Shown here one piece after another: positions 1 to 14,312 of a stretch of DNA of 64,000 nucleotides. The stretch is taken from contig CAZTBI010000002.1 in NCBI GenBank assembly GCA_964612055.1, positions 80,296-144,295 of the forward strand, read 5' to 3'. The stretch's first letter is position 1. Each line of letters opens with the position of its first letter. This DNA is from an uncultured Bdellovibrionales bacterium (GTDB lineage Bacteria; Patescibacteriota; Minisyncoccia; Moranbacterales; UBA1568). The position numbers and the translations under genes were made by a program. Below the pieces are notes generated by a model. That model was not told the origin of the DNA. It saw nothing but the letters and a program-made list of their open reading frames with translations, and ran no database searches.

Positions 1-1153
1 AGGGCTTGAAGGATGATCCTGGCTGACGATCACGGATAGCGACATTCACGTTACCATCGATAGAGTCATCAAAGTAGTCTTTGGAACCAACCATGGCGAG
101 TACCTGACCAGTTTTTGGATCCATAGCTACCAAAGCAGCATTAGAGGCTTTCCATCGGATATTTTTGGCGGCGCCTTCTCGGACAGCTTGTTCAGCAGCC
201 TCTTGTTTTTCCCAGTCGAGGGTGGTGATAACCTTGAGACCGCCCTGTTCTACAGCCTGATCGCCATACTTTTGCTGTAAGTAATCTTTGATATACATGA
301 CAAAATGCGGTGCGGCGATGATGTCTTTTTGAGGGAGGATCTTGTCGAGAGTTGGGGTCTCAATAGCGGTATTGGCTTGTTCTTCAGTGATATACCCGAG
401 CTTCATCATGGTACGAAGTGCGTAGTCTTTACGCCCAACGAGGGCATCGAGGTGAGATCCATAAGGAGAATAGTAAGCTGTGGCCTGAGGAAGGGCAGAA
501 ATAAGAGCCGCCTCATCAAGGGTGAGCTCTCGAGCCGGTTTGCCAAAAAAGGTCTGAGCAGCCGCCTCAATACCATAGGCATTGGAACCGTACGGGATTT
601 CATTTAAGTACATGGCCAAAATTTCGTCCTTGGAGAACTTCGTCTCCATTTCGATAGAGAGAATAACCTCCTTGATCTTGCGCGTGAGAGTTTTTTCGTT
701 GGTGAGGAGAGAGTTTTTGACAAACTGCTGTGTGATGGTCGATCCTCCCTGAGACTTCTCAAGGGTGATAATGTCGTTTAAAATGGATCGAATGATGGAG
801 GTAATCTTGATGCCGTGGTGGCTGTAGAAATCCTGATCCTCGAGGCTAATGGTGGCGTACTTAATAACATCCGGCATGTCAGAAAAAGGGATAATCGTAC
901 GTTTTTCCTCGCCATGCACCTCATAGAGAAGGTGGGTCCCGGTGCGGTCATAGATTTTGGTTGATTCTACGATGGCACGCTTGCTGATTTCGCCGGTATT
1001 CGGGAGATCTTTGGCAATATAGGCAAAGATAGAGCCAACTACCACAAAGCCAATGCCAAAAACGATCATTCCTATTCGGAAGAGTGTTCTCCAGATATGA
1101 TTTTTTGGCTTATCAAGGCCTGGAACTTGGCGTTTTCTGTGAAAAAATTTCAT
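1..1153 (-). CDS. Class A penicillin-binding protein (PBP1A-like); 5' part only, gene runs off the left window edge
   Basis: Minus-strand ATG at 1151-1153 gives MKFFHRKRQVPGLDKPKNHIW, then a TM helix (IGMIVFGIGFVVVGSIFAYIA). GT51 transglycosylase motifs follow: EDQDFYSHHGI, GGSTITQQ, RKIKE. No stop codon within the window. Confidence 0.8.
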   Translation of the reverse strand, partial: MKFFHRKRQVPGLDKPKNHIWRTLFRIGMIVFGIGFVVVGSIFAYIAKDLPNTGEISKRAIVESTKIYDRTGTHLLYEVHGEEKRTIIPFSDMPDVIKYATISLEDQDFYSHHGIKITSIIRSILNDIITLEKSQGGSTITQQFVKNSLLTNEKTLTRKIKEVILSIEMETKFSKDEILAMYLNEIPYGSNAYGIEAAAQTFFGKPARELTLDEAALISALPQATAYYSPYGSHLDALVGRKDYALRTMMKLGYITEEQANTAIETPTLDKILPQKDIIAAPHFVMYIKDYLQQKYGDQAVEQGGLKVITTLDWEKQEAAEQAVREGAAKNIRWKASNAALVAMDPKTGQVLAMVGSKDYFDDSIDGNVNVAIRDRQPGSSFKP

Positions 1154-1246
1154 AGAGTAATCAAGGGAAGTATCTCTATTGTATATCACAAAAAAAGGAA
1201 AATTGGAAGTCTCACTCAGCGAGCACAGGAGAGGCTGAGAGTTTTT

Positions 1247-2254
1247 TTATCGAGTCTTGAGTTTAGGGAAGATGCTTTTAAGAATTTCACTCGAAACATC
1301 GATGCCTTTACCTTCTACGAGCGGCTTCTCGTGCATGTTGTAGAAGGGATTGGGGTTAATTTCAATGATAACGTAGTCACTTTTGGCTGAAGAAATATCA
1401 TGAGCGAAGAAGTCTATGCCCCCATAGGTGAGACCAACAGCTTCAATGGCCCGTGCACATATATCTTTAAAATGAGGATGCATTTCCTTTGTGCGTTCAA
1501 TGGCCCTTCCACCGTCAGACATATTGAGATTGTTTCTGAGTTTGAAGAAATGCCCTTTCGGAAGAACCGATTTGAGAGTCAGTGAATGAAGTCGCAGAGT
1601 CTCTTTTGCAGTTTTATCAAGTTTAATTTCGAAACCAGGAAGTCTTTCAGCATCGAAGCGTTTAATAAGCTCTTCTATAGTAGAAGCTCCATCGCCAGTT
1701 ATCCCTGCAGAAATTTTCTGTACACACGAAAGAACCTTTCCTTGAAACACTAAGACGCGGTATTCATTCGCAACGAACATTTCTTCGATAAGGAATCTGA
1801 CCCGTGGGCGCTTTCCATATGCCCCTTTGGCGTGAGCTATGGCGACACGAAGTTCTTGAGGAGAAGCAATATCCCAGGTCACCCCTTTTGCTAAGGAGCC
1901 ATCAACAGGTTTGCAGATAAGAGGATATTTGAGCTTCCTTTCTTGGACAAGTCTGAGGGCTTCTTGGAGAGAAGTGGCTGTAAGTCCTTTAGGCGTCTTT
2001 ATATTTGAGGCATTGAGAACGGTTTTCGTAACTTCTTTATTTGTTGTGAGGTTTCCCATTCTTTTATAGATAGGAAGATTCCTTTTATAACAAAAAATAG
2101 CTCTTCCTCCATACTCAAGTTTCAGGATAGGGACCCCACCTTCCTCAATCATTTTTATTTGAATACCAAGTTCCACGGTCTTCTTCAGGAATGATTTAAA
2201 CCCTCCGTGCTTGATGTTTCTAATATATTCTTTTACAGTCATACTTTTATTCAA
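1247..2254 (-). CDS. ATP-grasp family ligase (RimK/cyanophycin-synthetase-like)
   Basis: 335 aa. ATP-grasp motifs KPVDGSLAKGV and EINPNP. Last gene of the operon with the two upstream minus-strand genes. Confidence 0.7.
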   Translation of the reverse strand: MNKSMTVKEYIRNIKHGGFKSFLKKTVELGIQIKMIEEGGVPILKLEYGGRAIFCYKRNLPIYKRMGNLTTNKEVTKTVLNASNIKTPKGLTATSLQEALRLVQERKLKYPLICKPVDGSLAKGVTWDIASPQELRVAIAHAKGAYGKRPRVRFLIEEMFVANEYRVLVFQGKVLSCVQKISAGITGDGASTIEELIKRFDAERLPGFEIKLDKTAKETLRLHSLTLKSVLPKGHFFKLRNNLNMSDGGRAIERTKEMHPHFKDICARAIEAVGLTYGGIDFFAHDISSAKSDYVIIEINPNPFYNMHEKPLVEGKGIDVSSEILKSIFPKLKTR

Positions 2255-2302
2255 AAGTTTAAAATCAACTTAGACGGCAGGTGTATAAAAGGGAATGAGA
2301 AA

Positions 2303-3697
2303 TTATTTGTTGATATCAATGAGAAATTTTCTCAAATGTTTTCTTCCTATGATGACAGGATATGTAAGGTGCCCACGGTCAATGCAAGAAACTTTAGCAG
2401 GCATTGTAACAGAATCAATAGTAAGCGTGACGAGAATCACTGGACGATAAGAATGTCCGTGAGACGATTTGACAGAGAAGGTATCTGCAAGATCCGGAAT
2501 ATCTTTAAAAAGTTTTTCACGTTCTTCCTTGGAGAGTTCGTTCACTATATCACGGCCAGCTATTTTTTCTTCGAATGTCTTAAGAACATCTTCAAATCCG
2601 AGCTCCTTTGCTAATGTAATATCGATAGAGGTGGAGTCGGCCCCGGTGTCGATTTTGGCCTCGACTTCAATTTCTTTGCCATCCTTTCCAATTAGCTTTA
2701 CTTTTTCAACGCCTCCAATAACGCGTTTACCAGAAAGCTCCTCGATTTCCTCCTCGATTTCTCCGCCGAAAAGATTTTGTCCCACGCGCATGCCACGTTC
2801 CGTTGACTTGATTTTCAGTCCAGCTACTCGCTTGAGGCGGCTTTTCAGCCCGGCCAAGTTAGCGAGCTGGATGGAGAGTCCTGGCCGAGCGTTGAGCTCC
2901 AAGATAACCGGTCCACGATCGCGGTCGATAGCAATATCGGCGCCAAGAAATCCCAGACCTGAAAGCGTCTGTGCTTCGACGGACATGCGTAAAATTTCTT
3001 TCCAATAGGGGATCTTGATACCAGAGAGCACCAGTCGTGTATCAGGGACATATTCGATCAAGTGACCCTTGCCGATGATGGCAGTCGTAGTAGTACCGGT
3101 AGCAAGGTCGATACCGACACCGATGGCTCCTTGCTGGAGATTAGCTTTGCCATCAGAGGCCTTGGTCGGTAGGCGGAGCATAGCCATGACAGGCACATGA
3201 TTGAAAACGATAACACGGATATCGGGAATACCTTTGTAGCTGTACGGTTTAAAAAGTTTCAAGAGTGTGAGGCGTTCTTCGAAAAAGGCGATATCCGGTG
3301 TGTTGGCCAAAGAAAACGAGCCATCAAGAATGTTTCTAATATGTGATTTCAGGTCTTCGACAGTAATGATAGAGCCATTGGCTTTGACCCAGGCGTCCTC
3401 ACGACCCTTCTTTTTGGCGTAGACAACGATGATGCCCTCACCGCCAAAACCACGGTTTGGTTTCAAGGCAAAACTACTAGGGAGTGAATTCCAATCAAAC
3501 TGCTCGAGCTCCTCATGGGTCTTTATCTTCGCAATGAGGGCTGAGACACCGAGGTTGTTTTTTTTCAGGAGACGTTTGCAGAGCAGCTTGTTGTCAGCGA
3601 TCTCCATCCCGCGCTTGCGGTTATTCGGTCGGATGTACTCCAAATTCCGGGCATTCATGCCGAGGAGCAACCCACTTTTTTTGAGGAAATCGAACAT
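2303..3697 (-). CDS. alpha-L-glutamate-ligase-like ATP-grasp protein fused to a C-terminal retropepsin-like (RimB/PF05618-like) domain
   Basis: 464 aa. N-terminus MNARNLEYIRP...KPNRGFGGEGIIV is a TIGR02291-like ATP-grasp. C-terminal about 110 aa contains IDTGADSTSI, the D-T-G-A aspartic protease motif. Confidence 0.7.
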   Translation of the reverse strand: MFDFLKKSGLLLGMNARNLEYIRPNNRKRGMEIADNKLLCKRLLKKNNLGVSALIAKIKTHEELEQFDWNSLPSSFALKPNRGFGGEGIIVVYAKKKGREDAWVKANGSIITVEDLKSHIRNILDGSFSLANTPDIAFFEERLTLLKLFKPYSYKGIPDIRVIVFNHVPVMAMLRLPTKASDGKANLQQGAIGVGIDLATGTTTTAIIGKGHLIEYVPDTRLVLSGIKIPYWKEILRMSVEAQTLSGLGFLGADIAIDRDRGPVILELNARPGLSIQLANLAGLKSRLKRVAGLKIKSTERGMRVGQNLFGGEIEEEIEELSGKRVIGGVEKVKLIGKDGKEIEVEAKIDTGADSTSIDITLAKELGFEDVLKTFEEKIAGRDIVNELSKEEREKLFKDIPDLADTFSVKSSHGHSYRPVILVTLTIDSVTMPAKVSCIDRGHLTYPVIIGRKHLRKFLIDINK

Positions 3698-3740
3698 ACA
3701 AGACAGAAAACAAAAAAGAAATCAATGGACAAGTGATTGT

Positions 3741-4400
3741 CTATTGAAGGTGACGAATAATTTTCCGGAAGCGGAGAAATTCGGTAATACGGAGACCGGT
3801 CCACTTACCAAGCGAGAAGTTGATAAGAAAAGTGAAAAGAATAATCCATGGGAAATGGAGCACCAGCGTCGTGAGGAAATCCCAACTGATAAGGTAGTAA
3901 CCAACAACGGAGATGATGAGTGTTTCGACAGCGAGAACAAGTGCGATCTTGCTTCCTTTCTCGATCTGAGTCGCGACGAATTTCTCCGCCAGCGTGATCA
4001 TGATGAGGAGCGGAAAGATCGAAACAGCGGCCAGTCCAGTGCGACGATACATACCTCCGATAACGAGGACACCGAGAATAGCGAGTGACACAATAGAAAC
4101 GGTGATGGCGACGCGGGGAAGATAGAGGAGTCGGAACTGTTTCATGAGGAGGCGAGACAGTGTCCCGACGAGGATGACCGAGACGAAGATAGCGATGCCG
4201 TATTTGATGCCATTGGGATCAAAGGCGAGGAGGGCAAAGGTGATGATGGAGGGGGTGTAGATGCCAAAGGCCTTGATCCCAATAACCTGACGAAAAAAAG
4301 CAACCAAGGTCACGACGATGGGTAACATCAAAAGAAGGGCCACGGTTTGGAGTGGTACTCCCTGCTCCACAATAAAGTTGATGAGTGGATGGTAGGACAT
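3741..4400 (-). CDS. Polytopic membrane protein, 7TM_transglut-like (no transglutaminase domain)
   Basis: 219 aa with about 6-7 predicted TM helices. First gene of the ATP-grasp operon. This architecture is characteristic of PF14402 gene neighbourhoods. Confidence 0.55.
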   Translation of the reverse strand: MSYHPLINFIVEQGVPLQTVALLLMLPIVVTLVAFFRQVIGIKAFGIYTPSIITFALLAFDPNGIKYGIAIFVSVILVGTLSRLLMKQFRLLYLPRVAITVSIVSLAILGVLVIGGMYRRTGLAAVSIFPLLIMITLAEKFVATQIEKGSKIALVLAVETLIISVVGYYLISWDFLTTLVLHFPWIILFTFLINFSLGKWTGLRITEFLRFRKIIRHLQ

Positions 4401-4430
4401 AGAGTATGAGTGATAAAAATCACGAAATAA

Positions 4431-4922
4431 CTAGGAGTTTTTGATCGCTTCCATTTTTCTTCGGCTCGCATGACACAGGGCAATGGCGAGGGCATCTGCG
4501 GTGTCGTCTGGTTTTGGTATTGAGGGGAGTTTCAAAAGAGCCTTCACCATCAATTGTACCTGACTCTTATCGGCTCGCCCATAATTTGTCAACGCCTGTT
4601 TCACTTCGAGCGGAGTGTAACCGAAAATACTAACACGTAAATTCTCTAAAGTCAAGAGGATAACGCCGCGAGCTTGGGCAACAGAAATAATGGTTTTTTG
4701 ATTCTTAAAGAAGAACAATTCTTCGACCGCGGCTTCCTCTGGTTTATAGCGTTTGATAATAGCCTTCAGATCGTCGGCAATTTCTGCCAAGCGTTTTTCT
4801 GGCGCTAGTTCTTTGTCGGTACTGATATGTCCAAAAGCAATGGAAGTTGTTTTCCCGCCCACACTCTCTATTACGCCCCAGCCCACCGTTGCGGTGCCGG
4901 GATCAATACCGAGAATTCTCAT
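4431..4922 (-). CDS. ruvC: Holliday junction resolvase RuvC
   Basis: MRILGIDPGTATVGWGVIE catalytic N-terminus. The ORF track's alternative start at 4937 adds 5 aa. Confidence 0.9.
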   Translation of the reverse strand: MRILGIDPGTATVGWGVIESVGGKTTSIAFGHISTDKELAPEKRLAEIADDLKAIIKRYKPEEAAVEELFFFKNQKTIISVAQARGVILLTLENLRVSIFGYTPLEVKQALTNYGRADKSQVQLMVKALLKLPSIPKPDDTADALAIALCHASRRKMEAIKNS

Positions 4923-4949
4923 AAAAGAGTTTTTCAAAAGTCGCCAAGA

Positions 4950-5669
4950 CTAGGCGCGGTTGTCCCAGACGCGCTGAACATCAGGATGATCATCCAAGGT
5001 TTCGAGGAGTTTTTCTAAAGCAGGCAGATCGTTTTCAGCAGGGGTAGCCATTTGTGACGGGACATAGCCAAGCTCGGCACTCTCGCACACAAGATTCTTG
5101 CCGCGGAAGTATTCTTCAACAGACTGGAGCTTATCAATAGCGGTGATGACGACAAACACTTCGTCGGTAGTGAAAAAATCATCAGCACCGGATTCGAGCG
5201 TTTCCGTCTCTAGAGTTTCGGCAGAATGTTTTTCGAGTAAAAAAGTAATGAGGCCAACGCGACGAAACATGAAACTGACAGCGCCGGTGGGAACGAATTT
5301 TCCATTGCCCTTTGTGAGGATACTCTTCACTTCACTGACGGTGCGGTTCTTGTTGTCGGTAGCGGTCTCAATGAGGAGGGCGACTTGGCCGGGACCGTAG
5401 GCTTCGTAGGTGAGCTCCTCGATTTTGGCGCCGTCTTTCAGTTCGCCGGTACCGCGTTTGATAGCCCGATCGATATTGTCTTTGGGCATGTTGACGGCTT
5501 TGGCGGCATCAATAGCCATCTTGAGTGAGTAGTTGTTATCGGGATTTCCGCCACCAGCGGCAGCCGCGATGATGATATTGCGTCCATACTTGGTAAAAAC
5601 AGCAGCGCGTTTGGCATCGTTCAATCCTTTTTGGCGATGGGTAGTAGCCCAGTGTGAGTGTCCTGACAT
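4950..5669 (-). CDS. yebC: YebC/PmpR family DNA-binding transcriptional regulator
   Basis: 239 aa beginning MSGHSHWATTHRQKG, the typical DUF28/YebC N-terminus. Confidence 0.9.
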   Translation of the reverse strand: MSGHSHWATTHRQKGLNDAKRAAVFTKYGRNIIIAAAAGGGNPDNNYSLKMAIDAAKAVNMPKDNIDRAIKRGTGELKDGAKIEELTYEAYGPGQVALLIETATDNKNRTVSEVKSILTKGNGKFVPTGAVSFMFRRVGLITFLLEKHSAETLETETLESGADDFFTTDEVFVVITAIDKLQSVEEYFRGKNLVCESAELGYVPSQMATPAENDLPALEKLLETLDDHPDVQRVWDNRA

Positions 5670-5858
5670 AGTGTTTGTAGCGCCCTTGATTTCTGGCGCA
5701 TTTCTTTGTCAGAGCTTTACGGTGCGCGACACCGTACTTTTATTAGTACGGCTTACTGCGCTCCGCAGCTCTTTCGCGAACTGCATCCAGAAACCAAGGG
5801 CTTGAATGGTGCTTAGATCAAGAAGTATTCTATCGGAATTTTCAAAAAAAGAAAAGAC

Positions 5859-6440
5859 TTACCGTTTTTTGTTGAAGACTGTTGCCATGTCGCGTATGTC
5901 GTCTTGGGCGGCCTGACGAGAAAGCGTCATGACATGATCTTTGACAGCGAAAGGATCGCCGACCTGACGAAAGGTAAAGCGTTCTTCTTCGGCAGCGGTC
6001 TGTACATAGACATCGCCAAAATTGAGGATAGTTGGGATGAGGCCATTGACGGAGCTCGTCACATCTTGGACGCGAGAAAAACGAAGCTCGCTAATACGAC
6101 GAGTGAAAAGTCCTCTTTGCTCAATATTCACAATGCGTTCGTTGGTAATAATCCAGACATCAAAGTAGTAATCAATCCAGACCAAGAAACTGTAGAGCCA
6201 AATAAAAAGAAGAAGAGTATTTTGAACAAAGAGAAAGAACGGCCAATTTTCTTCAGTGAGAGCTTCTGGGAAAAGGGTTGGGAGAAAGGCAATGCTTCCC
6301 ATAAGGAAGAAAGAGAGGAGGAGTACCATCCCAAGATGCATAACAATATTGAACCAGTGACGGTGAATAATCCGGAGGACGGTCTCGTTTTCATGTTGCC
6401 CCTGAAAGTGGTGGCGGCCAAGTGGCGTGGAAGGAGACAT
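5859..6440 (-). CDS. Membrane protein with bacterial PH (YdbT/DUF304-like) domain
   Basis: Two TM helices followed by a PH-like region (ITNERIVNIEQRGLFTRRISELRFSRVQDV). Confidence 0.55.
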   Translation of the reverse strand: MSPSTPLGRHHFQGQHENETVLRIIHRHWFNIVMHLGMVLLLSFFLMGSIAFLPTLFPEALTEENWPFFLFVQNTLLLFIWLYSFLVWIDYYFDVWIITNERIVNIEQRGLFTRRISELRFSRVQDVTSSVNGLIPTILNFGDVYVQTAAEEERFTFRQVGDPFAVKDHVMTLSRQAAQDDIRDMATVFNKKR

Positions 6441-6445
6441 AGTCT

Positions 6446-6670
6446 TTAGAATGACGATTGAAGAGGCAGCATTTCTTCGAGTGGGAGTGAAAAAAAGAGA
6501 AGAGCATTCGTAAACAAAAGTATACCGAGAACGCTCATAAAAAGAAGAGTGCCAAACAGAGCTACCTTACGGTTGAGGGAGTAACGGAGTAAATGAAAAA
6601 CAACAAACAACCCAGTGATGACGAAACTCAAAAAAAGAAACGTATAGAGAAGACCAAAAACAAAACGCAT
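6446..6670 (-). CDS. Small hypothetical membrane protein
   Basis: 74 aa with two hydrophobic helices, tightly packed between ruvB and the PH-domain gene on the same strand. Confidence 0.4.
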   Translation of the reverse strand: MRFVFGLLYTFLFLSFVITGLFVVFHLLRYSLNRKVALFGTLLFMSVLGILLFTNALLFFSLPLEEMLPLQSSF

Positions 6671-6719
6671 AGGGAATATTTTTTGTTGACCTCGTTATTG
6701 TATCATCGCCCGATGATGC

Positions 6720-7751
6720 CTACAATAATTTTTCTTGATGATTTTTTGGCATCGCTATATCGAGATGCTTGTAACCATGTTCTGTGACGACGCGGCCACG
6801 CGGAGTGCGAGCCAGGAATCCGAGCTGGATCAAGTACGGTTCGTAGACGTCTTCGATGGTCTGTATCTCTTCGCCAGTAACGGCCGCGAGTGCCTGGATA
6901 CCGGCGGGACCACCTTTGAACTTATGGATGAGGGTGTGAAGAATGTGACGGTCAGTTGGTTCGAGACCGAGATGGTCAATTTCGTACAGATCGAGCGCTT
7001 CACGGGCAAGGTCCCCGGAAATGGTAGGGACATCTTTTACTTCCGCATAATCGCGGACGCGTTTCAAAATGCGATTCGCCACGCGGGGAGTTTGGCGGCT
7101 ACTTCTGGCAATCTCTTCTGCTCCTGATACATCGAGACCAATACCAAGAATACCCGAGGAGCGCTTTACGATCTTTTCGATATCTTCCGGAGTGTAGAAT
7201 TCTAGTCTGTGAGTCGAGCCAAAGCGATTGCGCAGGGGATTGGAAAGCGATCCCAGTCTGGTAGTGGCACCAATCAGGGTGAAGCGGGGGAGATCAAGCT
7301 GGATGGTTCGGGCGGCTGGTCCTTTGCCGATGATGATATCGAGTTTGTAGTCTTCCATGGCTGGATACAAGACTTCTTCGATCATTTTATTGAGTCGGTG
7401 AATTTCATCAATAAAGAGGACGTCACCGGGTTCGAGATTAGTGAGGATAGAGCCGAGGTCACCTACTTTTTCGATGGCCGGTCCCGAAGTCACCTTGATA
7501 CCGACACCCATTTCTTTGGCGATGATGTGAGCAAGAGTTGTTTTTCCGAGTCCTGCTGGACCATAGAGAAGCACGTGATCAATATTTTCAGAGCGTTTCT
7601 TGGCGGCTTGAATAAAGATATCGAGATGGCGCTTGATCTTGTCCTGGCCAATATATTCTCCGAAATTTTGTGGCCGAAGGGTGTTATCCAGGTTCTGATC
7701 TTCAGCAGCCTTTTCTGGCTCTAGAGGGGAAGAAGTTTCAGCGTGAATCAT
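6720..7751 (-). CDS. ruvB: Holliday junction branch migration ATPase RuvB
   Basis: Walker [12 protein letters not shown], sensor motifs and a RuvB C-terminal domain. Confidence 0.95.
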
Positions 7752-7812
7752 AGGAATAAATGCTTGAATAAGGGAAAAAGTGACGTTTACTACAGTTTCA
7801 GTATAGCACTAG

Positions 7813-7841
7813 TTGACAAAGATTCAAAGACATGCTATTAT
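7813..7841 (+). promoter_or_regulatory. sigma70-type promoter for the candidate sRNA (TTGACA-N17-TATTAT)
   Basis: -35 TTGACA at 7813-7818, 17-nt spacer, -10 TATTAT at 7836-7841. Confidence 0.55.
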
Positions 7842-7846
7842 CAGGG

Positions 7847-8080
7847 GTCGCTTAAAAAACAAGTCCGCCTATTTCGATAGGACTGCTTCACATGTAGACA
7901 ATTGGGGATTTCTATCTTTTATCCTCAATCACGGGAACTGTTGCCAAGATCCGGGTAGGGTGGTTTCGGCTGCGCTATACCTCGACACTTTTCCTTTCCT
8001 CGTGCTCCCATGCTTGAGGATTTGTCTACAGCTGAAGCAGTAGCGATAGAAAAACCCCTCCATCTCGGAGAGGTTTTTTG
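7847..8080 (+). ncRNA. Candidate structured small RNA (rod-like, 6S-like or novel); no protein-coding potential
   Basis: Delimited by the consensus promoter and an intrinsic terminator. 5' GGGGTCGCT (7844-7852) pairs with AGCGA...CCCC (8042-8058). 18-bp helix 7882-7901/8022-8041 with a 2x2 internal loop, coaxial with 8-bp helix 7921-7928/8014-8021. UUCG-tetraloop hairpin at 7868-7881. Confidence 0.45.
8055..8080. terminator. Bidirectional intrinsic terminator
   Basis: Hairpin CCTCC-ATCTC-GGAGAGG followed by T7 on the + strand and preceded by A5. Serves the + sRNA and the minus-strand pilB-like gene ending at 8098. Confidence 0.55.
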
Positions 8081-8097
8081 TTTGGAGATTCCTATTA

Positions 8098-9867
8098 CTA
8101 TTTTCCGCGACCGCCGCTTTTCTCAAGAGTTTCTTGGATACCAACATCGGAAAGGATGTCATCGTAGAGGCTTTGGAGGGATTCTTCTTTGCCGGCGCTG
8201 TTCCAAACCTCATCCATGGTGGTGATACCGTCGATGACTTTCAGTATCCCATCCTGGCTCATCGTGAGCATGCCATCTTCTATCGCTGCTTTGCGAATTT
8301 CGTTTTCGAGCGCTCCATCAGAAATAAGTCCAGCCATTTTTTCATTGACGGGAAAGACTTCAAAAATACCTTTACGGCCTCGGTAACCGTTTAAGTTACA
8401 CTCACTGCACCCCACAGGTTTGTAGAGGGTGGGGATATCATCCGGAACCTTGACTCCTGCCTTTGGCGAAATGAAAGAGAGAATTTTTTTGATAGCATCA
8501 ACGGTTTTTTGGGCCGGAGCATAGGCCACTTTGCACTTGGGGCAGAGGATGCGTACCAAGCGCTGGGCGATAAAGATAGTCACGCCCGTAGCAATGGATG
8601 ATGGTTTCGATCCGAGTTCCAGGAGACGAGCGATCGATGCGGCGGCGCTATTGGTGTGAAGAGTGGAGAAAACTAAGTGACCGGTGAGCGCTGCGTTAAT
8701 CGCGATATCAGCTGTTTCCTCATCACGAATTTCTCCCACCAAGATAACGTCAGGATCCTGACGGACGATAGCGCGCAGTCCTTGCGCGAAGGTGTAGTTT
8801 TTGTCTTTGGAGACTTCTGTCTGAACGATACCGGGAAGCACGTATTCTATCGGATCTTCGATGGTAATAATCTTGAGTGATTTATCATTCACGCTATTCA
8901 AAAGGCTGTAGAGAGTGGTCGTTTTTCCGGAACCCGTTGGTCCGGTATTTAGGATCATGCCAAAAGGCTTTTCGATTTGTCGTTTCACTTCATCGTACGC
9001 CCGACCGCGAAGCCCGAGTTCTTCGACTGGCACAAAGGCTTCTTCGCCAGTGAGGAGCCGCATGTTGATGCTTTCGCCGTTATTGCCAGGAATGATGTTG
9101 ACGCGGATATCGATGTGGTGCTCTCCGAGTTCTGCAGAAAAATGACCATCTTGAGAACGATTGCGAATATTGATTTTCATTTTCGCCATCATCTTCACTC
9201 GGGAAAGCGCTAACTGATAGACGGACTTAGGAAGGTTCCCGACTTCTTGTAAGACGCCATCAATACGGTAGCGCAGACGAACATTTTCTCCGAAAGGCTC
9301 GAAGTGGATATCGCTTGAGCGGAGTTTGTAAGCACCGGCGAGAATGATTTCCAAAATGCGGGAAGTAGGAATGCTGGAAGAATCTTTGTTCAGCTGTAAG
9401 AGGTCTCCGAAATCTTGTTCAAATTTTTCGAGGTCAGGGCCAGAAAGAGAAACGTGCATGAAGTCGAGACTTTCGATCAAAGGTTTCTTTTCGTACTCCA
9501 TCCAAACTTTTTCGAGTGATGGTTGTGAAACAAGAAAGAAGTCAGCTTCTAGGTCATGGCTCTTGGCAAAGGTATCGAAGAACTCCAGGGCCTCAGCATT
9601 CTTTGGATCAGTGATGGCGACACGGAGCTTTGGACGTTCTTTCTGAAAGATGACCGCTCCCAGGCGTTTCGAATCCTCCTCCGAGAGCATGAGCACTGCT
9701 TCTTGGTCAAGAGGGAAGATAGAAAGATCGAGGTAGCGCATGCCAAGCTCGCTTGCAGTACGAGCGGTAGTTTCTTCTATAGACTGCGAACGCATTTTAT
9801 CGAGAACGCCCTGAGTTTTTTCGTCAGAAACGGTATGCGTCGGTTCTTGATGAACAACCTTGACCAT
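8098..9867 (-). CDS. pilB: GspE/PilB-family type II/IV secretion ATPase (copy 1)
   Basis: 589 aa. N-terminal T2SSE_N-like region, Walker A GPTGSGKTTT, and a tetra-Cys motif CPKC...CSEC. Confidence 0.9.
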   Translation of the reverse strand: MVKVVHQEPTHTVSDEKTQGVLDKMRSQSIEETTARTASELGMRYLDLSIFPLDQEAVLMLSEEDSKRLGAVIFQKERPKLRVAITDPKNAEALEFFDTFAKSHDLEADFFLVSQPSLEKVWMEYEKKPLIESLDFMHVSLSGPDLEKFEQDFGDLLQLNKDSSSIPTSRILEIILAGAYKLRSSDIHFEPFGENVRLRYRIDGVLQEVGNLPKSVYQLALSRVKMMAKMKINIRNRSQDGHFSAELGEHHIDIRVNIIPGNNGESINMRLLTGEEAFVPVEELGLRGRAYDEVKRQIEKPFGMILNTGPTGSGKTTTLYSLLNSVNDKSLKIITIEDPIEYVLPGIVQTEVSKDKNYTFAQGLRAIVRQDPDVILVGEIRDEETADIAINAALTGHLVFSTLHTNSAAASIARLLELGSKPSSIATGVTIFIAQRLVRILCPKCKVAYAPAQKTVDAIKKILSFISPKAGVKVPDDIPTLYKPVGCSECNLNGYRGRKGIFEVFPVNEKMAGLISDGALENEIRKAAIEDGMLTMSQDGILKVIDGITTMDEVWNSAGKEESLQSLYDDILSDVGIQETLEKSGGRGK

Positions 9868-11123: not shown

Positions 11124-11239
11124 ACTGCCTTCGTTGGTTGAAATTGATAAGTAGTCAAAGGTACCAAAGACTGGGCGTCGTGTCAACTTGAGGGCGCTTT
11201 CTGGCCAAAAGGCCTGATTTGGCATAGGATGAAATCATT

Positions 11240-11683
11240 ATGGATCAGTACTCTACGACGCATTCTGCCGAAGAAACCCGGGCTTTTGGAAAAAAGCTTG
11301 CAGGGGAAATTGTTCCTGGGACGACTCTCTGTTTACAGGGAGATTTGGGCGCGGGCAAGACGACTTTGGTACAGGGCTTGCTTGAGAGCCTTGGTGCCGA
11401 GCGGCCGTATGTCAGTCCGACATTTGTTATCATGAAGCAGTATGATCTGCCTGCGCCAAGCGCGACTGGTATACGGCGTATCTATCATGCTGATGCCTAT
11501 CGGGTAGAGGAAAAAGATTTTCGCGAGATCGGTTTTGCCGAATGGTGCGCTGACGATGAAGGCCTGGTGATTCTTGAGTGGCCGGAACGCATTTCTAATA
11601 TGCTGCCTCAAAAAAGAATCGACGTTACGCTACAATCTCTTTCTGAAACCGAGCGAGAAATTTCTCTGAAAGAAAACTCCTAA
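11240..11683 (+). CDS. tsaE: tRNA threonylcarbamoyladenosine biosynthesis ATPase TsaE
   Basis: 147 aa with P-loop GDLGAGKTT, YjeE family. Confidence 0.85.
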   Translation: MDQYSTTHSAEETRAFGKKLAGEIVPGTTLCLQGDLGAGKTTLVQGLLESLGAERPYVSPTFVIMKQYDLPAPSATGIRRIYHADAYRVEEKDFREIGFAEWCADDEGLVILEWPERISNMLPQKRIDVTLQSLSETEREISLKENS

Positions 11684-11699
11684 AGCACCCTCTTGTTCT

Positions 11700-14312
11700 A
11701 TGGAAAAGAAGAAAAAAATCTTGGTCCTCCTTGATGGGAATGCGCTCATCCACCGGGCCTATCATGCCTTGCCGCCTTTGACGACCAAAAATGGTGAAAC
11801 CGTGCAGGCGGTCTATGGCTTTACCATGACCCTTCTGTCGGTACTGGAAAAGTTTCATCCAGAATATATCGCGGCCACATTCGATTTGAAGGGGCCGACC
11901 TTTCGTGATGACATGTACGCTGACTACAAGGCGACTCGTACCGCCGCACCCGATGATCTCTATGCACAGATTCCACGGGTGAAAGAATTGGTGCAGGCTT
12001 TCAATATCCCGATTTATGAAAAGGAAGGGTATGAAGCAGATGATTGTGTCGGAACACTCGCGAGGCAAGCGGAGAAAGAAGGGGTCCAAGTGATTATTGT
12101 GACCGGTGACAGCGATGAACTACAGTTGGTCACTGAAGATGTTAAAGTCTTCATGCTCCGCAAGGGTATCAAGGATATCGCACTCTACGATGAAGAAGCG
12201 GTACAGAAAAAGTATGGCTTTAGTGCCAAGCAGATTCCGGATTACAAGGGCTTGGCTGGTGATTCATCGGATAACATCCCCGGAGTGACTGGTGTAGGCG
12301 CGAAGACAGCCACTGATCTTTTGCAGAAATTTGGAACCCTTGAGAATATTTATGAACACTTAGACGAAGTCAAAGAATCGGTGCGGAAGAAGCTGATAGC
12401 TGATAAGAAGAATGCTTTTCTTTCGAAGGAGCTTGGTACCATTCATCTTGAAGCGCCGGTACGTTTGGATTTGCTGGCCTGCGTGGCCAAGGATTATGAC
12501 AAGAGCGTGGTGACCAAGATGTTTCAGGAACTCGGGTTTTTTAGCTTGATCAAGCGTCTTTCTGGGAGCGAAGCCGTGGAGAGTAATCACAAAGAGACGA
12601 AGTCGAGGAAGATGAAGGAAAAGGAATTAAAAACGAAAGAAGAGCTTGCGACATTTTTTAAGAACATAGCCGGAAAAAAAGTAGCGCTCTCAGTCAAAAA
12701 GGAAACAGCATCGCTTTTTGGGGTCGGGCTGCAATCACTTCACATTTCTTCTTCGCCAGAAGAAAGCGTGGCGATAATTTGGAATGAGGAGAATAAGAAA
12801 AGTATCCGTACTTTTCTCGAAGATGAGCACCAGCCAAAGGTGGTCTATGATGCCAAAATGCTCATGCATCTTTTTCAGAAAGAGGGGATTGCTTTGCGAG
12901 GAGTCGTTTTCGATGTCATGCTCGCTGCCTACCTTCTCAATTCCGGGAGCAATGTAGAGCTTGATTATCTGGTCTTGGTTGAGTACAGCGAGGAACCGCC
13001 GTATTTTGAGGCGCCATATATTTTCAGACTCGAAGGTCGCTATCAGGAAAAGCTTGACGAGGTAAGTTCGACGCAGAAAAAGGGAAAGACGGTGCGTACC
13101 GTGCTGGAGGAAATTGAAATGCCACTTTTGCCGATACTCTTTGCCATGGAAGAGCGGGGCGTAATCTTGAATACCAAAAAATTCAAAACTCTCTCCGATG
13201 AACTTGGAAAAGAACTCGCTTCGTTGGAAAAGGATATCTACACGTTTTCGGGACGGGAATTCAATATTAATTCACCGAAGCAGCTGTCAGAAATTCTTTT
13301 CAAGGATTTGAACATCCCGACGACCAATATTAAAAAAACGAAGACCGGCATCTCGACCGCCTCTTCCGAATTGCAGAAGTTGCAGGAATATCCCATCGTG
13401 CAGAAGATCGAACACTACCGCGAACTGTTCAAACTAAAGACAACCTACCTTGATGCCTTGCCGACGCTCGTGGATGAACATTCGCGTCTTCACACGACCT
13501 ACTATCAGGCAGTAGCGGCGACCGGACGTCTTTCATCGTCGGATCCGAATTTGCAAAATATTCCAGCCCGCGGGGAGTGGAGCGAGCGCGTGCGCGGCGC
13601 CTTTGAACCAGAACCGGGGTATGTGTTTGTCGGGGCGGATTACTCACAGATCGAGTTACGAGTTATGGCTCATCTAAGCCAAGATAAAGAGCTTCTCATG
13701 GCCTTCAAGAATGGTGAAGATGTACATAAGGCAACGGCCTCGGTGGTTTTCAAAGTGAAGGGAGAAGAAGTGACATCTGATATGCGCCGTCAGGCCAAGG
13801 TCTTTAACTTCGGCATTCTCTACGGCATGGGAGCCTACGGATTGTCGCAAGCAGCCGAGATTGATCAAAAGACGGCCGCGGAATTCATCGTCGAATATTT
13901 CAAGAAGTTTGCTGGTGTGAAAAAATTCATCGAAGAGATGAAAGAAGGGGCGCGCAAGCATCACTATGTAGAAACTGAAGTAGGGCGCCGGCGCTACACG
14001 CCAGAAATCGAGAGTCAGAATTTTCAGGTGGCCCACGCCGCTGAACGGATGGCGATCAATATGCCGGTGCAGGGACTGGCAGCGGATATCATGAAGCTTG
14101 CCATGCTCACGGTGCAAAAATTGATCGAACATGATTTCAAGGAGAGTGTGGTGATGGTGCTGCAAGTGCACGATGAACTGATCTTTGAAGTAAAAGACGG
14201 ACAGGCGGAAAAGTTTGCCGAAGCAGTGAAGAAAGTCATGGCCGAAGCTTATCCGCTCAGCGTCCCGCTTCTTGCTGAAACTGAGATTGGGAAGAGCTGG
14301 GGAGAGATATAG
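11700..14312 (+). CDS. polA: DNA polymerase I
   Basis: 870 aa. 5' nuclease domain (LLDGNALIHRAYHAL) plus family A polymerase motifs (RRQAKVFNFGILYG, VHDELIFEV). Confidence 0.95.
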   Translation: MEKKKKILVLLDGNALIHRAYHALPPLTTKNGETVQAVYGFTMTLLSVLEKFHPEYIAATFDLKGPTFRDDMYADYKATRTAAPDDLYAQIPRVKELVQAFNIPIYEKEGYEADDCVGTLARQAEKEGVQVIIVTGDSDELQLVTEDVKVFMLRKGIKDIALYDEEAVQKKYGFSAKQIPDYKGLAGDSSDNIPGVTGVGAKTATDLLQKFGTLENIYEHLDEVKESVRKKLIADKKNAFLSKELGTIHLEAPVRLDLLACVAKDYDKSVVTKMFQELGFFSLIKRLSGSEAVESNHKETKSRKMKEKELKTKEELATFFKNIAGKKVALSVKKETASLFGVGLQSLHISSSPEESVAIIWNEENKKSIRTFLEDEHQPKVVYDAKMLMHLFQKEGIALRGVVFDVMLAAYLLNSGSNVELDYLVLVEYSEEPPYFEAPYIFRLEGRYQEKLDEVSSTQKKGKTVRTVLEEIEMPLLPILFAMEERGVILNTKKFKTLSDELGKELASLEKDIYTFSGREFNINSPKQLSEILFKDLNIPTTNIKKTKTGISTASSELQKLQEYPIVQKIEHYRELFKLKTTYLDALPTLVDEHSRLHTTYYQAVAATGRLSSSDPNLQNIPARGEWSERVRGAFEPEPGYVFVGADYSQIELRVMAHLSQDKELLMAFKNGEDVHKATASVVFKVKGEEVTSDMRRQAKVFNFGILYGMGAYGLSQAAEIDQKTAAEFIVEYFKKFAGVKKFIEEMKEGARKHHYVETEVGRRRYTPEIESQNFQVAHAAERMAINMPVQGLAADIMKLAMLTVQKLIEHDFKESVVMVLQVHDELIFEVKDGQAEKFAEAVKKVMAEAYPLSVPLLAETEIGKSWGEI

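What the first reader, a model, noticed from the sequence alone, without database searches (positions are those of the whole stretch)
2303..2800. Retropepsin-like aspartyl protease domain fused in cis to an ATP-grasp ligase
The last roughly 110 aa of the 464-aa protein contain IDTGADSTSIDITLAKELG, the D-T/S-G-A catalytic motif of the retropepsin-like fold. In RimK systems this domain (RimB) is a separate protein. A covalent ligase-protease fusion suggests coupled synthesis and processing of the product or target.
Basis: partly seen in the sequence, partly recalled or inferred. Interest (0 to 1): 0.55.

Follow-up and report, generated by a model that had tools for sequence, protein, structure and literature searches.

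The report
Glutamate-ligase-like enzyme fused to retropepsin protease
A candidate-phylum (Moranbacteria) gene joins a peptide-building ATP-grasp ligase to a small HIV-protease-like peptidase in one chain, next to a seven-helix membrane partner; it is a fused, cytoplasmic version of the recently described Pseudomonas Rlo/Rim ligase-protease systems.

Summary
ORF 2303..3697(-) encodes a 464-aa protein with three parts:
- aa 1-310: an intact RloC-type ATP-grasp ligase (PF14397, E 2e-71).
- aa 311-324: a conserved acidic linker, GGEIEEEIEELSGK.
- aa 325-464: a retropepsin-like domain (PF05618, above Pfam's cut-off) carrying D350-T-G-A.

The fusion is not an artefact. It recurs in more than 120 protein clusters and in 45 species-level loci of Moranbacteria and other Patescibacteria. 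An RloB-like 7TM gene always lies directly upstream, and one or two further ATP-grasp ligase genes lie downstream.

The interpretation needs correcting. The ligase is RloC-like, not RimK. A RimB-RimK hybrid with the opposite domain order ("RimBK") was already published in 2025.

Best reading: a membrane-associated module that makes an acidic peptide with the ligase and trims it with the protease. It is a new variant of a known kind. It adds gene-fusion evidence that the RloC product is the substrate of the Rlo protease. No biochemistry was done here, so substrate and product are inferred.

The parts
2303..3697 (-). CDS of the 464-aa fusion protein: RloC-type ATP-grasp ligase, acidic linker, retropepsin-like peptidase. 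The range includes the stop codon.
   Evidence: It is 100% identical to NCBI MBP7899032.1. The full-length AF2 model has pLDDT 89.9.
2825..3649 (-). ATP-grasp ligase domain (aa 17-291; the conserved RloC-like body runs from aa 1 to about 310).
   Evidence: PF14397 E 2e-71. TIGR02291 287.5 bits. Foldseek best matches are ArgX/LysX, RimK and CphA1. The ATP/Mg-site residues K79, D254, E267 and N269 are invariant; their role as ATP-grasp site residues is assigned from general knowledge of the fold.
2726..2773 (-). Junction LFGGEIEEEIEELSGK (aa 309-324). The acidic linker begins where unfused RloC-like proteins end.
   Evidence: Translation. Invariant in 14 sequences of 45-79% identity. Among the ten most conserved 12-mers across 44 diverse fusions. 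pLDDT about 55. Unfused relatives have no such tail.
2306..2725 (-). Retropepsin-like aspartic peptidase domain (aa 325-464), with a helical insert of about 35 aa at aa 360-398.
2639..2650 (-). Catalytic motif D350-T-G-A.
   Evidence: D350, G352 and A353 are invariant and T351 is at least 90% conserved.
3741..4400 (-). Upstream partner: a 219-aa seven-TM protein equivalent to the C-terminal 7TM half of RloB. It has no inactive-transglutaminase domain.
   Evidence: PF14402 E 1.7e-26. It matches positions 308-507 of the 508-position RloB model NF052267. It lies directly upstream of the fusion in every related locus that has enough flank.
1247..2254 (-). Downstream second ATP-grasp ligase (335 aa), most like the ATP-grasp (G) domain of cyanophycin synthetase.
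   Evidence: TIGR02068 positions 210-474, 190.8 bits. All 10 immediately downstream genes sampled were ATP-grasp ligases or GT4 glycosyltransferases.
2..1246 (-). Context only: the 5' part of a class A penicillin-binding protein gene that runs off the window.
   Evidence: TIGR02074 314.9 bits. A homologue lies downstream in 28 of 45 loci.

Best explanation
The gene encodes a bifunctional cytoplasmic enzyme of an Rlo-like system adapted to a patescibacterial cell, which has no periplasm.

Proposed mechanism:
1. The N-terminal RloC-type ATP-grasp domain uses ATP to add amino acids, most likely L-glutamate through alpha-peptide bonds, to a carboxylate acceptor. This makes an acidic oligo- or polypeptide, or a peptide tail.
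2. Two chains pair through their C-terminal retropepsin-like domains, each giving one Asp350 to the catalytic dyad.
3. The channel of that dimer is lined by K348, R418 and R441. It binds the acidic chain and cuts it, which sets its length or turnover. It may also stimulate the ligase, as RimB does for RimK.
4. The 7TM protein encoded immediately upstream (the membrane half of RloB) docks the enzyme at the membrane, or passes or senses the product.
5. The one or two further ATP-grasp ligases encoded downstream extend or diversify the peptide.

Shown here: domain identities, the fold, conservation of catalytic and substrate-binding residues, recurrence of the fusion, and the conserved gene neighbourhood.

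Inferred: the glutamate or acidic substrate, dimerisation, coupling of the two activities, and the role of the 7TM protein.
For: Ligase domain:
- PF14397 E 2e-71 and TIGR02291 287.5 bits.
- Structural neighbours are ArgX/LysX, RimK and CphA1, all enzymes that extend a peptide at its C-terminus.
- The ATP-grasp residues K79, D254, E267 and N269 are invariant.

Protease domain:
- PF05618 above its cut-off.
- AF2 pLDDT 92.9.
- By alignment to 9G58 and 9G59, K348-x-D350, R418 (in 'YRPV') and R441 (in 'DRxxL') match the conserved K-x-DTG, 'RPV' and 'DR' motifs of the crystallised RloA proteins. By motif position these correspond to RloA K46, D48, R114 and R137, which coordinate octa-glutamate and are needed for activity in vitro and in vivo (PMC12239564). 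The residue-number mapping is my inference.
- Among 50%-identity representatives, domains with an intact DTG keep these residues (33, 31 and 31 of 36). Degenerate domains lose R418 and R441 (7 of 63 each) and keep K/R348 in only 28 of 63.

Recurrence:
- The best 120 of 7684 hits, all at least 72% identical, have the same length; all but about five have both domains in the precomputed Pfam list.
- 45 species-level loci, with full-length fusions down to 44-52% identity in other Patescibacteria.

Context:
- The 7TM gene is directly upstream in all loci with flank.
- A natural 7TM_transglut + ATPgrasp_ST fusion exists (P0270), which supports a physical link between RloB and RloC.
- ATP-grasp ligase genes follow the fusion in the sampled loci.

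Precedent:
- RimB cleaves polyGlu tails and stimulates polyGlu synthesis by RimK, and the RimBK hybrid is active (PMC11957791).
- Mutations in rloB and rloC suppress the loss of the RloA proteases (PMC12239564).
Against: - No biochemical data exist for this protein or for any RloC. Glutamate specificity is extrapolated from RimK and from the basic residues of the protease channel.
- All equivalog-level models fall below their cut-offs: TIGR02291 287.5 against 314.2; RloA3, RloA2 and RloA1 at 40, 29 and 27 bits against 210-280.
- The domain carries a helical insert of about 35 aa (aa 360-398) that is absent from RloA and RimB and could change access or specificity.
- Dimerisation could not be modelled. 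The full-length pTM of 0.67 leaves the relative position of the two domains open.
- Many relatives have a degenerate protease domain (63 of 99 representatives), so the domain can also serve a non-catalytic role.
- Pfam describes PF14397 as associated with sugar transfer, and glycosyltransferase genes sit in some loci. The acceptor could therefore be a surface glycopolymer rather than a free peptide or a protein.
Confidence: 0.6

Rival explanations
1. Self-processing polyprotein. The conserved acidic linker (EIEEEIEE) is a built-in cleavage site. The protease domain cuts itself free, as a retroviral protease cuts itself out of Gag-Pol, and then acts as a separate RimB-like protein. The ligase is left with a Glu-rich C-terminal tail that could even serve as its own primer.
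For: - The linker is as conserved as the catalytic motifs, yet it is predicted with low confidence, which suggests it is flexible (pLDDT about 55).
- It starts exactly where unfused RloC-like proteins end.
- Acid-rich linkers go with an intact DTG: at least 5 acidic residues in 15 of 36 intact domains against 1 of 63 degenerate ones.
- RimB and RloA cleave internal polyGlu stretches placed between two domains (PMC11957791, PMC12239564).
Against: - The characterised enzymes need at least 6 (RimB) or at least 8 (RloA) contiguous Glu, and an interrupting residue in the middle abolishes cleavage. The linker has at most 3 contiguous Glu, interrupted by Ile.
- The linker-DTG correlation is not corrected for phylogeny.
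- Some relatives with a degenerate DTG keep a similar linker (P0138, P0153, P0159).
- The i, i+4, i+7 spacing of Ile/Leu fits an amphipathic helix with a structural role.
Confidence: 0.15
2. The C-terminal domain is mainly a non-catalytic module. It would serve for dimerisation, substrate capture or ligase activation, and the enzyme would in effect be only a ligase.
For: - 63 of 99 related representatives have lost the DTG but keep the domain, often within triple fusions with a MATCAP/DUF1704 metallopeptidase.
- RimB stimulates the ATPase and polyGlu synthesis of RimK. Whether that needs its proteolytic activity was not checked in the paper.
Against: - In this clade D350, G352 and A353 are invariant and T351 nearly so, and K348, R418 and R441 are invariant or nearly so, down to 37% identity. 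That is the pattern expected under selection for catalysis.
- The degenerate relatives lose exactly these residues.
Confidence: 0.12
3. The system decorates a cell-surface glycopolymer or peptidoglycan with peptide side chains. It would not make free polyglutamate or modify a protein. The protease would edit these side chains before export through, or with the help of, the 7TM protein.
For: - Pfam describes PF14397 as a sugar-transfer associated ATP-grasp.
- GT4 glycosyltransferase genes follow the ligases in some loci.
- A class A PBP gene lies downstream in 28 of 45 loci.
- Loss of RloA gives cell-shape, osmotic and cell-wall-antibiotic phenotypes (PMC12239564).
- Loss of the RloB homologue in Shewanella causes hypervesiculation (PMC12096838).
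Against: - The PBP synteny is confined to Moranbacteria and may be mere gene order.
- The glycosyltransferases are present in only some loci.
- No acceptor can be inferred from sequence.
- This rival differs from the best explanation only in the acceptor, not in the ligase-protease logic.
Confidence: 0.1
4. Artefact: two adjacent genes were merged by an assembly or frameshift error, or the DTGA is a chance motif.
For: None found. A D-[TS]-G-A tetrapeptide alone would occur by chance in roughly 1-2% of proteins of this size (my own estimate).
Against: - The same continuous ORF is found in more than 120 independent clusters and 45 species-level genomes.
- There are profile, sequence and structure matches to RloA.
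Confidence: 0.01

Closest known systems
rloABC operon of Pseudomonas (RloA secreted retropepsin-like peptidase, RloB inactive transglutaminase-7TM protein, RloC ATP-grasp protein; Lormand et al., mBio 2025, PMC12239564)
   Same: - The same three protein families sit in one gene cluster: a PF14397/TIGR02291 ligase, a PF05618 peptidase and a PF14402 7TM module.
- The peptidase fold is closest to the RloA2 and RloA crystal structures.
- The Lys and Arg residues that coordinate polyGlu are conserved.
   Different: - Here the peptidase is fused to the C-terminus of the ligase, so it has no signal peptide and must be cytoplasmic. RloA is secreted.
- No disulfide pair is possible: the domain has a single Cys, C438, which is not conserved.
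- The RloB homologue lacks the periplasmic inactive-transglutaminase domain (219 aa, matching only positions 308-507 of the model).
- Extra ATP-grasp ligase genes follow the fusion.
- The peptidase has a helical insert of about 35 aa.
- The host is a patescibacterium, whereas 96% of RloB hits in the paper were from Proteobacteria.
RimB/RimK and the natural RimBK hybrid (Little et al., JBC 2025, PMC11957791)
   Same: - A cytoplasmic retropepsin-like endopeptidase is paired with an alpha-L-glutamate-ligase-type ATP-grasp enzyme.
- A covalent protease-ligase hybrid exists in nature and is proteolytically active.
   Different: - In RimBK the protease is at the N-terminus of a true RimK. Here the order is reversed.
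- The ligase here is not RimK (TIGR00768 41 bits against 143).
- RimBK occurs mainly in Flavobacteriales and Rhodobacterales and has no 7TM partner described.
- The target RpsF is unlikely here, but this was not tested.
Retroviral and retroviral-like aspartic proteases (HIV-1 PR, foamy virus PR, Ddi1 RVP domain, Rickettsia APRc)
   Same: - One DTGA-bearing half-barrel per chain, which implies a homodimeric active site.
   Different: - 15-23% identity.
- A basic rather than hydrophobic substrate channel, inferred from K348, R418 and R441.
- A helical insert.
- Part of a metabolic ligase rather than of a polyprotein or a ubiquitin-shuttle protein.
ATPgrasp_ST + (degenerate) retropepsin-like + MATCAP/DUF1704 triple fusions and ATPgrasp-NTG proteins found here in metagenomes (P0129, P0138, P0157; L041, L044)
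   Same: - The same ligase family and the same 7TM neighbour.
- The same junction after the '...LF' helix.
   Different: - In most of them the aspartic dyad is lost (DTS, NTG, DPx).
- A metallopeptidase of the MATCAP family is fused or adjacent, apparently supplying the peptidase function instead.

Membership tests
PF05618 / RimB-RloA family of bacterial retropepsin-like aspartic peptidases | Profile match above the curated threshold | tested here: met
   PF05618 37.7 bits against a gathering score of 27, aa 327-463.
PF05618 / RimB-RloA family of bacterial retropepsin-like aspartic peptidases | D-T-G-A active-site motif | tested here: met
   D350-T-G-A. D350, G352 and A353 are invariant and T351 is at least 90% conserved in 39 homologues.
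PF05618 / RimB-RloA family of bacterial retropepsin-like aspartic peptidases | Retropepsin fold | tested here: met
PF05618 / RimB-RloA family of bacterial retropepsin-like aspartic peptidases | Basic residues that coordinate polyglutamate (RloA K46, R114, R137) | tested here: met
   K348, R418 and R441 sit in the K-x-DTG, 'RPV' and 'DR' motifs shared with 9g58 and 9g59 in the phmmer alignments, and they are invariant or nearly so. The residues are defined in PMC12239564; the number mapping is by motif position.
PF05618 / RimB-RloA family of bacterial retropepsin-like aspartic peptidases | Homodimer with the two Asp residues at the interface; cleavage of polyGlu | not testable with these tools
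   Only single-chain prediction was available. No biochemistry.
RloA proper (NCBIfam NF052262, NF052263, NF052264) | Equivalog score; N-terminal signal peptide; conserved disulfide pair | tested here: not met
   27-40 bits against cut-offs of 210-280. The domain is internal, following a cytoplasmic ATP-grasp domain. It has a single non-conserved Cys.
RloC / TIGR02291 alpha-L-glutamate ligase-like protein | Score above the curated cut-off over the full model | tested here: not met
   287.5 bits against 314.2, with model positions 6-293 of 317 matched. This is a near miss: same subfamily, different C-terminus. The Pfam family PF14397 is clearly met (E 2e-71).
RimK (TIGR00768; S6--L-glutamate ligase) | Score above the curated cut-off | tested here: not met
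   41.3 bits against 143.4. phmmer against the RimK structure 5zct gives E 0.87. Only the general ATP-grasp fold is shared.
RimBK hybrid (PMC11957791) | RimB domain at the N-terminus of a RimK domain | tested here: not met
   The order here is ligase at the N-terminus and peptidase at the C-terminus, and the ligase is not RimK.
RloB (NF052267; PF14400 + PF14402) | N-terminal inactive transglutaminase domain followed by 7 TM helices | tested here: not met
   The neighbour 3741..4400(-) matches only positions 308-507 of the 508-position model (78 bits against 900). PF14402 is met. There is no room upstream, because ruvC ends at 4431.
ATP-grasp superfamily (catalytically competent) | Conserved ATP-binding Lys and the Mg-binding D/E-E-N residues | tested here: met
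   K79, D254, E267 and N269 are invariant in A1 and A2. Their assignment as ATP-grasp site residues comes from general knowledge of the fold.

The most novel reading that the evidence does not exclude
The invariant acidic linker GGEIEEEIEE is functional. It is not a passive tether. It would act as an intramolecular pseudo-substrate or self-cleavage site for the retropepsin-like domain, making the enzyme an autoregulated or self-processing ligase-protease. After cleavage the ligase would carry a Glu-rich C-terminus that it could extend itself, a self-priming polyglutamylase. This would be a bacterial metabolic counterpart of retroviral polyprotein autoprocessing.
Probability: 0.15. Interest if true: 0.75.

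Novelty: new variant of a known kind. Interest (0 to 1): 0.45.

Why it matters
The physiological substrate of the Rlo proteases, and what RloB and RloC do, are open questions in the 2025 Pseudomonas work. There the genetics show only that loss of rloB or rloC suppresses loss of the proteases.

The fusions described here add evidence of the "Rosetta stone" kind:
- RloC-type ligase and Rlo-type protease are joined in one cytoplasmic chain across many Patescibacteria.
- The 7TM half of RloB is always encoded next door, and is itself fused to the ligase in other lineages.

This argues that the ligase product is the protease substrate and that the 7TM module works with the ligase at the cytoplasmic face of the membrane.

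It also shows that the system is not confined to Proteobacteria. It is retained in bacteria with very small genomes, which suggests an important role, probably related to the envelope or to osmotic stress.

Practical points:
- Current database names for these proteins ('ATP-dependent zinc protease', 'sugar-transfer associated ATP-grasp domain-containing protein') are misleading.
- The soluble two-domain protein would be a convenient single-polypeptide model for studying how the ligase and protease are coupled.

Tried and rejected
- Iyer et al. 2009 (PMC3268129), the original comparative-genomics paper on these amidoligases, is not held. I could not check whether this fusion is mentioned there.
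- Literature searches for the Pfam and TIGRFAM accessions, and for DUF1704 together with ATP-grasp, found no description of a PF14397 + PF05618 fusion.
- The Foldseek search with the full-length model was dominated by the ATP-grasp domain. A separate domain model was therefore made.
- The afdb50 library was not available.
- The promoter and terminator scan of 1000..8200 found no more sites than shuffled sequence. The operon structure therefore rests only on same-strand genes with gaps of 30-50 nt.
- A scan of the whole window in six frames with a profile of the domain found no second retropepsin-like domain. No run of at least 5 acidic residues occurs in any ORF of at least 80 aa, so no encoded substrate candidate lies nearby.
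- Rejected, zinc protease (the Pfam and NCBI name): there is no HExxH motif in the sequence, and the fold is that of an aspartic protease.
- Rejected, RimK identity.
- Rejected, merged-gene artefact.
- A strict link between the acidic linker and an active DTG: only a statistical tendency, with exceptions.
Full report
**1. Observation**

The window carries an ATG-initiated ORF at 2303..3697 on the minus strand that encodes 464 aa.

Pfam finds two domains:
- PF14397 (ATPgrasp_ST), aa 17-291, E 2e-71.
- PF05618 ('Zn_protease', the RimB/RloA retropepsin-like family), aa 327-463, 37.7 bits against a gathering score of 27.

NCBIfam gives TIGR02291 'alpha-L-glutamate ligase-like protein' at 287.5 bits (cut-off 314.2). 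It gives weak hits to the three RloA models at 27-40 bits, far below their cut-offs.

By sequence alone the C-terminal part matches the crystallised RloA (9G58), RloA2 (9G59) and Legionella Lpg0085 (2PMA). The motifs K-x-DTGA, 'RPV' and 'DRxxL.YP.(I/L)(I/L)G' are shared. The PDB codes are assigned to RloA in PMC12239564.

The domain is about 140 aa rather than about 110.

**2. Fold**

A full-length AlphaFold model built on a 39-sequence alignment has mean pLDDT 89.9 and pTM 0.67. Only the inter-domain segment, aa 311-320, is uncertain (pLDDT about 55). Its best PDB matches are ArgX/LysX, RimK and cyanophycin synthetase, all ATP-grasp enzymes that extend a chain at its C-terminus.

A separate model of aa 322-464 has pLDDT 92.9 and pTM 0.84.
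- Foldseek gives the same picture.

Compared with RloA and with shorter fused relatives, the domain has a helical insert of about 35 aa (aa 360-398). It lies between the DTGA strand region and the hairpin that carries R418.

**3. Catalytic competence**

In 39 homologues down to 37% identity, the following are invariant:
- In the peptidase: D350, G352, A353, R418, R441 and G451. T351 and K348 are at least 90% conserved.
- In the ligase: K79, D254, E267 and N269, which I assign as the ATP/Mg-site residues from general knowledge of ATP-grasp enzymes.

In RloA, K46, R114 and R137 together with D48 coordinate an octa-glutamate. R114A and R137A abolish function in vitro and in vivo (PMC12239564). 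By motif position in the alignments to 9G58 and 9G59, these correspond to K348, R418 and R441 here.

Among 50%-identity cluster representatives that have a C-terminal domain of this kind:
- 36 keep D-[TS]-G. Of these, 33, 31 and 31 keep K/R348, R418 and R441.
- 63 have a degenerate motif. Of these, 28 keep K/R348 and only 7 keep each Arg.

The window's protein belongs to the catalytically intact class, and its channel looks built for acidic peptides.

**4. The fusion is real and recurrent**

- The best 120 of 7684 hits are at least 72% identical and of about 464 aa. All but about five have both Pfam domains in the precomputed list. Where named, they are from Candidatus Moranbacteria/Moraniibacteriota.
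- One GenBank protein, MBP7899032.1, is 100% identical and is named 'ATP-dependent zinc protease'. Others are named 'sugar-transfer associated ATP-grasp domain-containing protein'.
- In species-representative genomes there are 45 loci. Full-length fusions extend down to 44-52% identity in Paceibacteria, Parcubacteria and other Patescibacteria.
- Moraniibacteriota belong to the Parcubacteria group of the Patescibacteria.

**5. Neighbourhood**

All the genes below lie on the minus strand, with gaps of 30-50 nt.
- Upstream is ruvC (4431..4937).
- At 3741..4400 is a 219-aa protein with seven hydrophobic segments. It matches PF14402 (E 1.7e-26) and only the last 200 positions of the RloB model. There is no room for the periplasmic inactive-transglutaminase domain of RloB.
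- Then comes the fusion gene.
- At 1247..2254 is a 335-aa ATP-grasp ligase most like the G domain of cyanophycin synthetase (190.8 bits).
- Last is the start of a class A PBP gene (2..1246).

Across the 45 loci:
- The 7TM gene is directly upstream of the fusion wherever flank is available.
- One or two same-strand genes of about 300-340 aa follow the fusion in most loci. About 20 of the 45 loci have a gene similar to the window's second ligase nearby. In the other loci sampled, the genes after the fusion are RimK-like or YheCD-like ATP-grasp ligases, followed in two cases by a GT4 glycosyltransferase.
- The PBP gene is nearby in 28 of 45 loci, all close relatives.

A promoter and terminator scan was uninformative.

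**6. Wider family**

A full HMMER scan of 1.84 billion representatives gave 438 hits below 1e-30. Their architectures show a modular system:
- ATPgrasp_ST + intact retropepsin domain, about 430-500 aa.
- ATPgrasp_ST + degenerate retropepsin-like domain (DTS, NTG, DPx) + MATCAP/DUF1704 metallopeptidase, about 780-800 aa.
- Versions with a further ATP-grasp or a YdjC domain.
- A 7TM_transglut + ATPgrasp_ST fusion (P0270).
- Plain RloC-like proteins of about 300-320 aa.

Loci L041 and L044 show one such arrangement: 7TM, then ATP-grasp-NTG (431 aa), then a QEGLA/MATCAP-like protein, then two CphA-like ligases.

The common logic is: 7TM module, RloC-type ligase, a peptidase (aspartic or metallo), and additional ligases.

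**7. The linker**

The fusion junction lies right after a helix ending in '...LF' (F310). Unfused RloC-like proteins terminate within a few residues of this point and have no acidic tail.

In the fusions the junction is followed by GGEIEEEIEE(L/I)(S/T)G(K/R).
- It is invariant in 14 sequences of 45-79% identity.
- It is among the ten most conserved 12-mers over 44 diverse fusions.
- It is the least confidently modelled segment.
- Acid-rich linkers are associated with an intact DTG: at least 5 acidic residues in 15 of 36 against 1 of 63. The Mann-Whitney p is 1.6e-7, not phylogenetically corrected.

This invites the idea of a built-in substrate or pseudo-substrate. Three points count against simple self-cleavage:
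- RimB needs at least 6 and RloA at least 8 contiguous Glu, whereas the linker has at most three in a row.
- The Ile/Leu spacing fits an amphipathic helix.
- A few relatives with a degenerate DTG keep a similar linker.

I treat self-processing as a minority hypothesis.

**8. Mechanism proposed**

By analogy with the two characterised systems, I propose a cytoplasmic, membrane-associated 'make and trim' enzyme:
- The ATP-grasp domain polymerises or appends acidic residues, probably alpha-linked Glu.
- Two chains pair their retropepsin-like domains to form the Asp350 dyad, which cuts these chains. This controls their length or turnover and may activate the ligase.
- The 7TM protein localises the enzyme, or exports or senses the product.
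- The extra ligases diversify the product.

The analogies are these. RimB trims the polyGlu made by RimK and stimulates RimK, and the RimBK hybrid is active (PMC11957791). Loss of the RloA proteases is suppressed by loss of rloB or rloC (PMC12239564).

Because Patescibacteria lack an outer membrane, relocation of the protease to the cytoplasm and loss of the periplasmic domain of RloB are coherent (inference).

The envelope phenotypes of rlo mutants and of a Shewanella RloB mutant (PMC12096838), together with the PBP synteny, hint at an envelope-related role. This is circumstantial.

Domain identity, fold, residue conservation and gene linkage are shown here. Substrate, product, dimerisation and coupling are inferred.

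**9. Comparison and novelty**

It works like Rim and Rlo, but it fails the membership tests for RimK, RimBK, RloA proper and RloB proper, and it narrowly misses the RloC equivalog threshold.

A ligase-retropepsin fusion is already published (RimBK), so the concept is not new. The following appear not to have been described in the searchable literature:
- an RloC-type ligase in the fusion;
- the reversed domain order;
- the obligatory 7TM neighbour;
- the conserved acidic linker;
- the helical insert;
- the patescibacterial distribution.

I could not read Iyer et al. 2009. The proteins are present in public databases with both Pfam domains detectable.

Verdict: new variant of a known kind. Interest is moderate, mainly because it gives fusion-based evidence on the unresolved substrate relationship within the Rlo system.

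Noticed in passing
window 2..1246 (-): The 5' part of a class A penicillin-binding protein gene (TIGR02074 314.9 bits) lies immediately downstream of the ligase genes and runs off the window. A homologue lies within about 1-5 kb downstream of the fusion in 28 of 45 related loci, all Moranbacteria-like.
   Followed up: partly
L002, L007, L018, L026, L033, L039 (genes just after the fusion): The gene or genes following the fusion vary in family but are nearly always ATP-grasp ligases (RimK-like, YheCD-like, CphA-G-like). In L018 and L039 a GT4 glycosyltransferase follows.
   Followed up: partly
P0129, P0138, P0157 and others (about 780-800 aa); L041:5995-8242, L044:5983-8225: Relatives carry a degenerate retropepsin-like domain (DTS, NTG, DPx). 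It is fused to, or followed by, a MATCAP/DUF1704 (QEGLA) metallopeptidase, as if the aspartic peptidase had been replaced functionally.
   Followed up: partly
P0270 (680 aa): A natural fusion of the 7TM_transglut module (aa 88-292) with the ATPgrasp_ST ligase (aa 376-648). It supports a direct interaction between the RloB-like 7TM protein and the RloC-like ligase.
   Followed up: no
window 2303..3697 (-); L003, L008, L009 and other loci: There are labelling inconsistencies. The identical GenBank protein is assigned to 'Candidatus Gracilibacteria' and named 'ATP-dependent zinc protease', whereas all close relatives are Moranbacteria and the window reads cleanly in code 11. Many related contigs are titled 'uncultured Bdellovibrionales'.
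   Followed up: no
window 49459..56880 (+): A very long ORF of 2473 aa with a TTG start. It was not examined.
   Followed up: no
window about 11225..11700: Long ORFs switch strand here: genes are on the minus strand before about 11.2 kb and almost all on the plus strand after 11.7 kb, a divergent junction. GC skew stays positive on both sides.
   Followed up: no
window 5859..6440 (-): A 193-aa ORF lies between yebC and ruvB. It has two hydrophobic segments and no NCBIfam match at E <= 1e-5.
   Followed up: no
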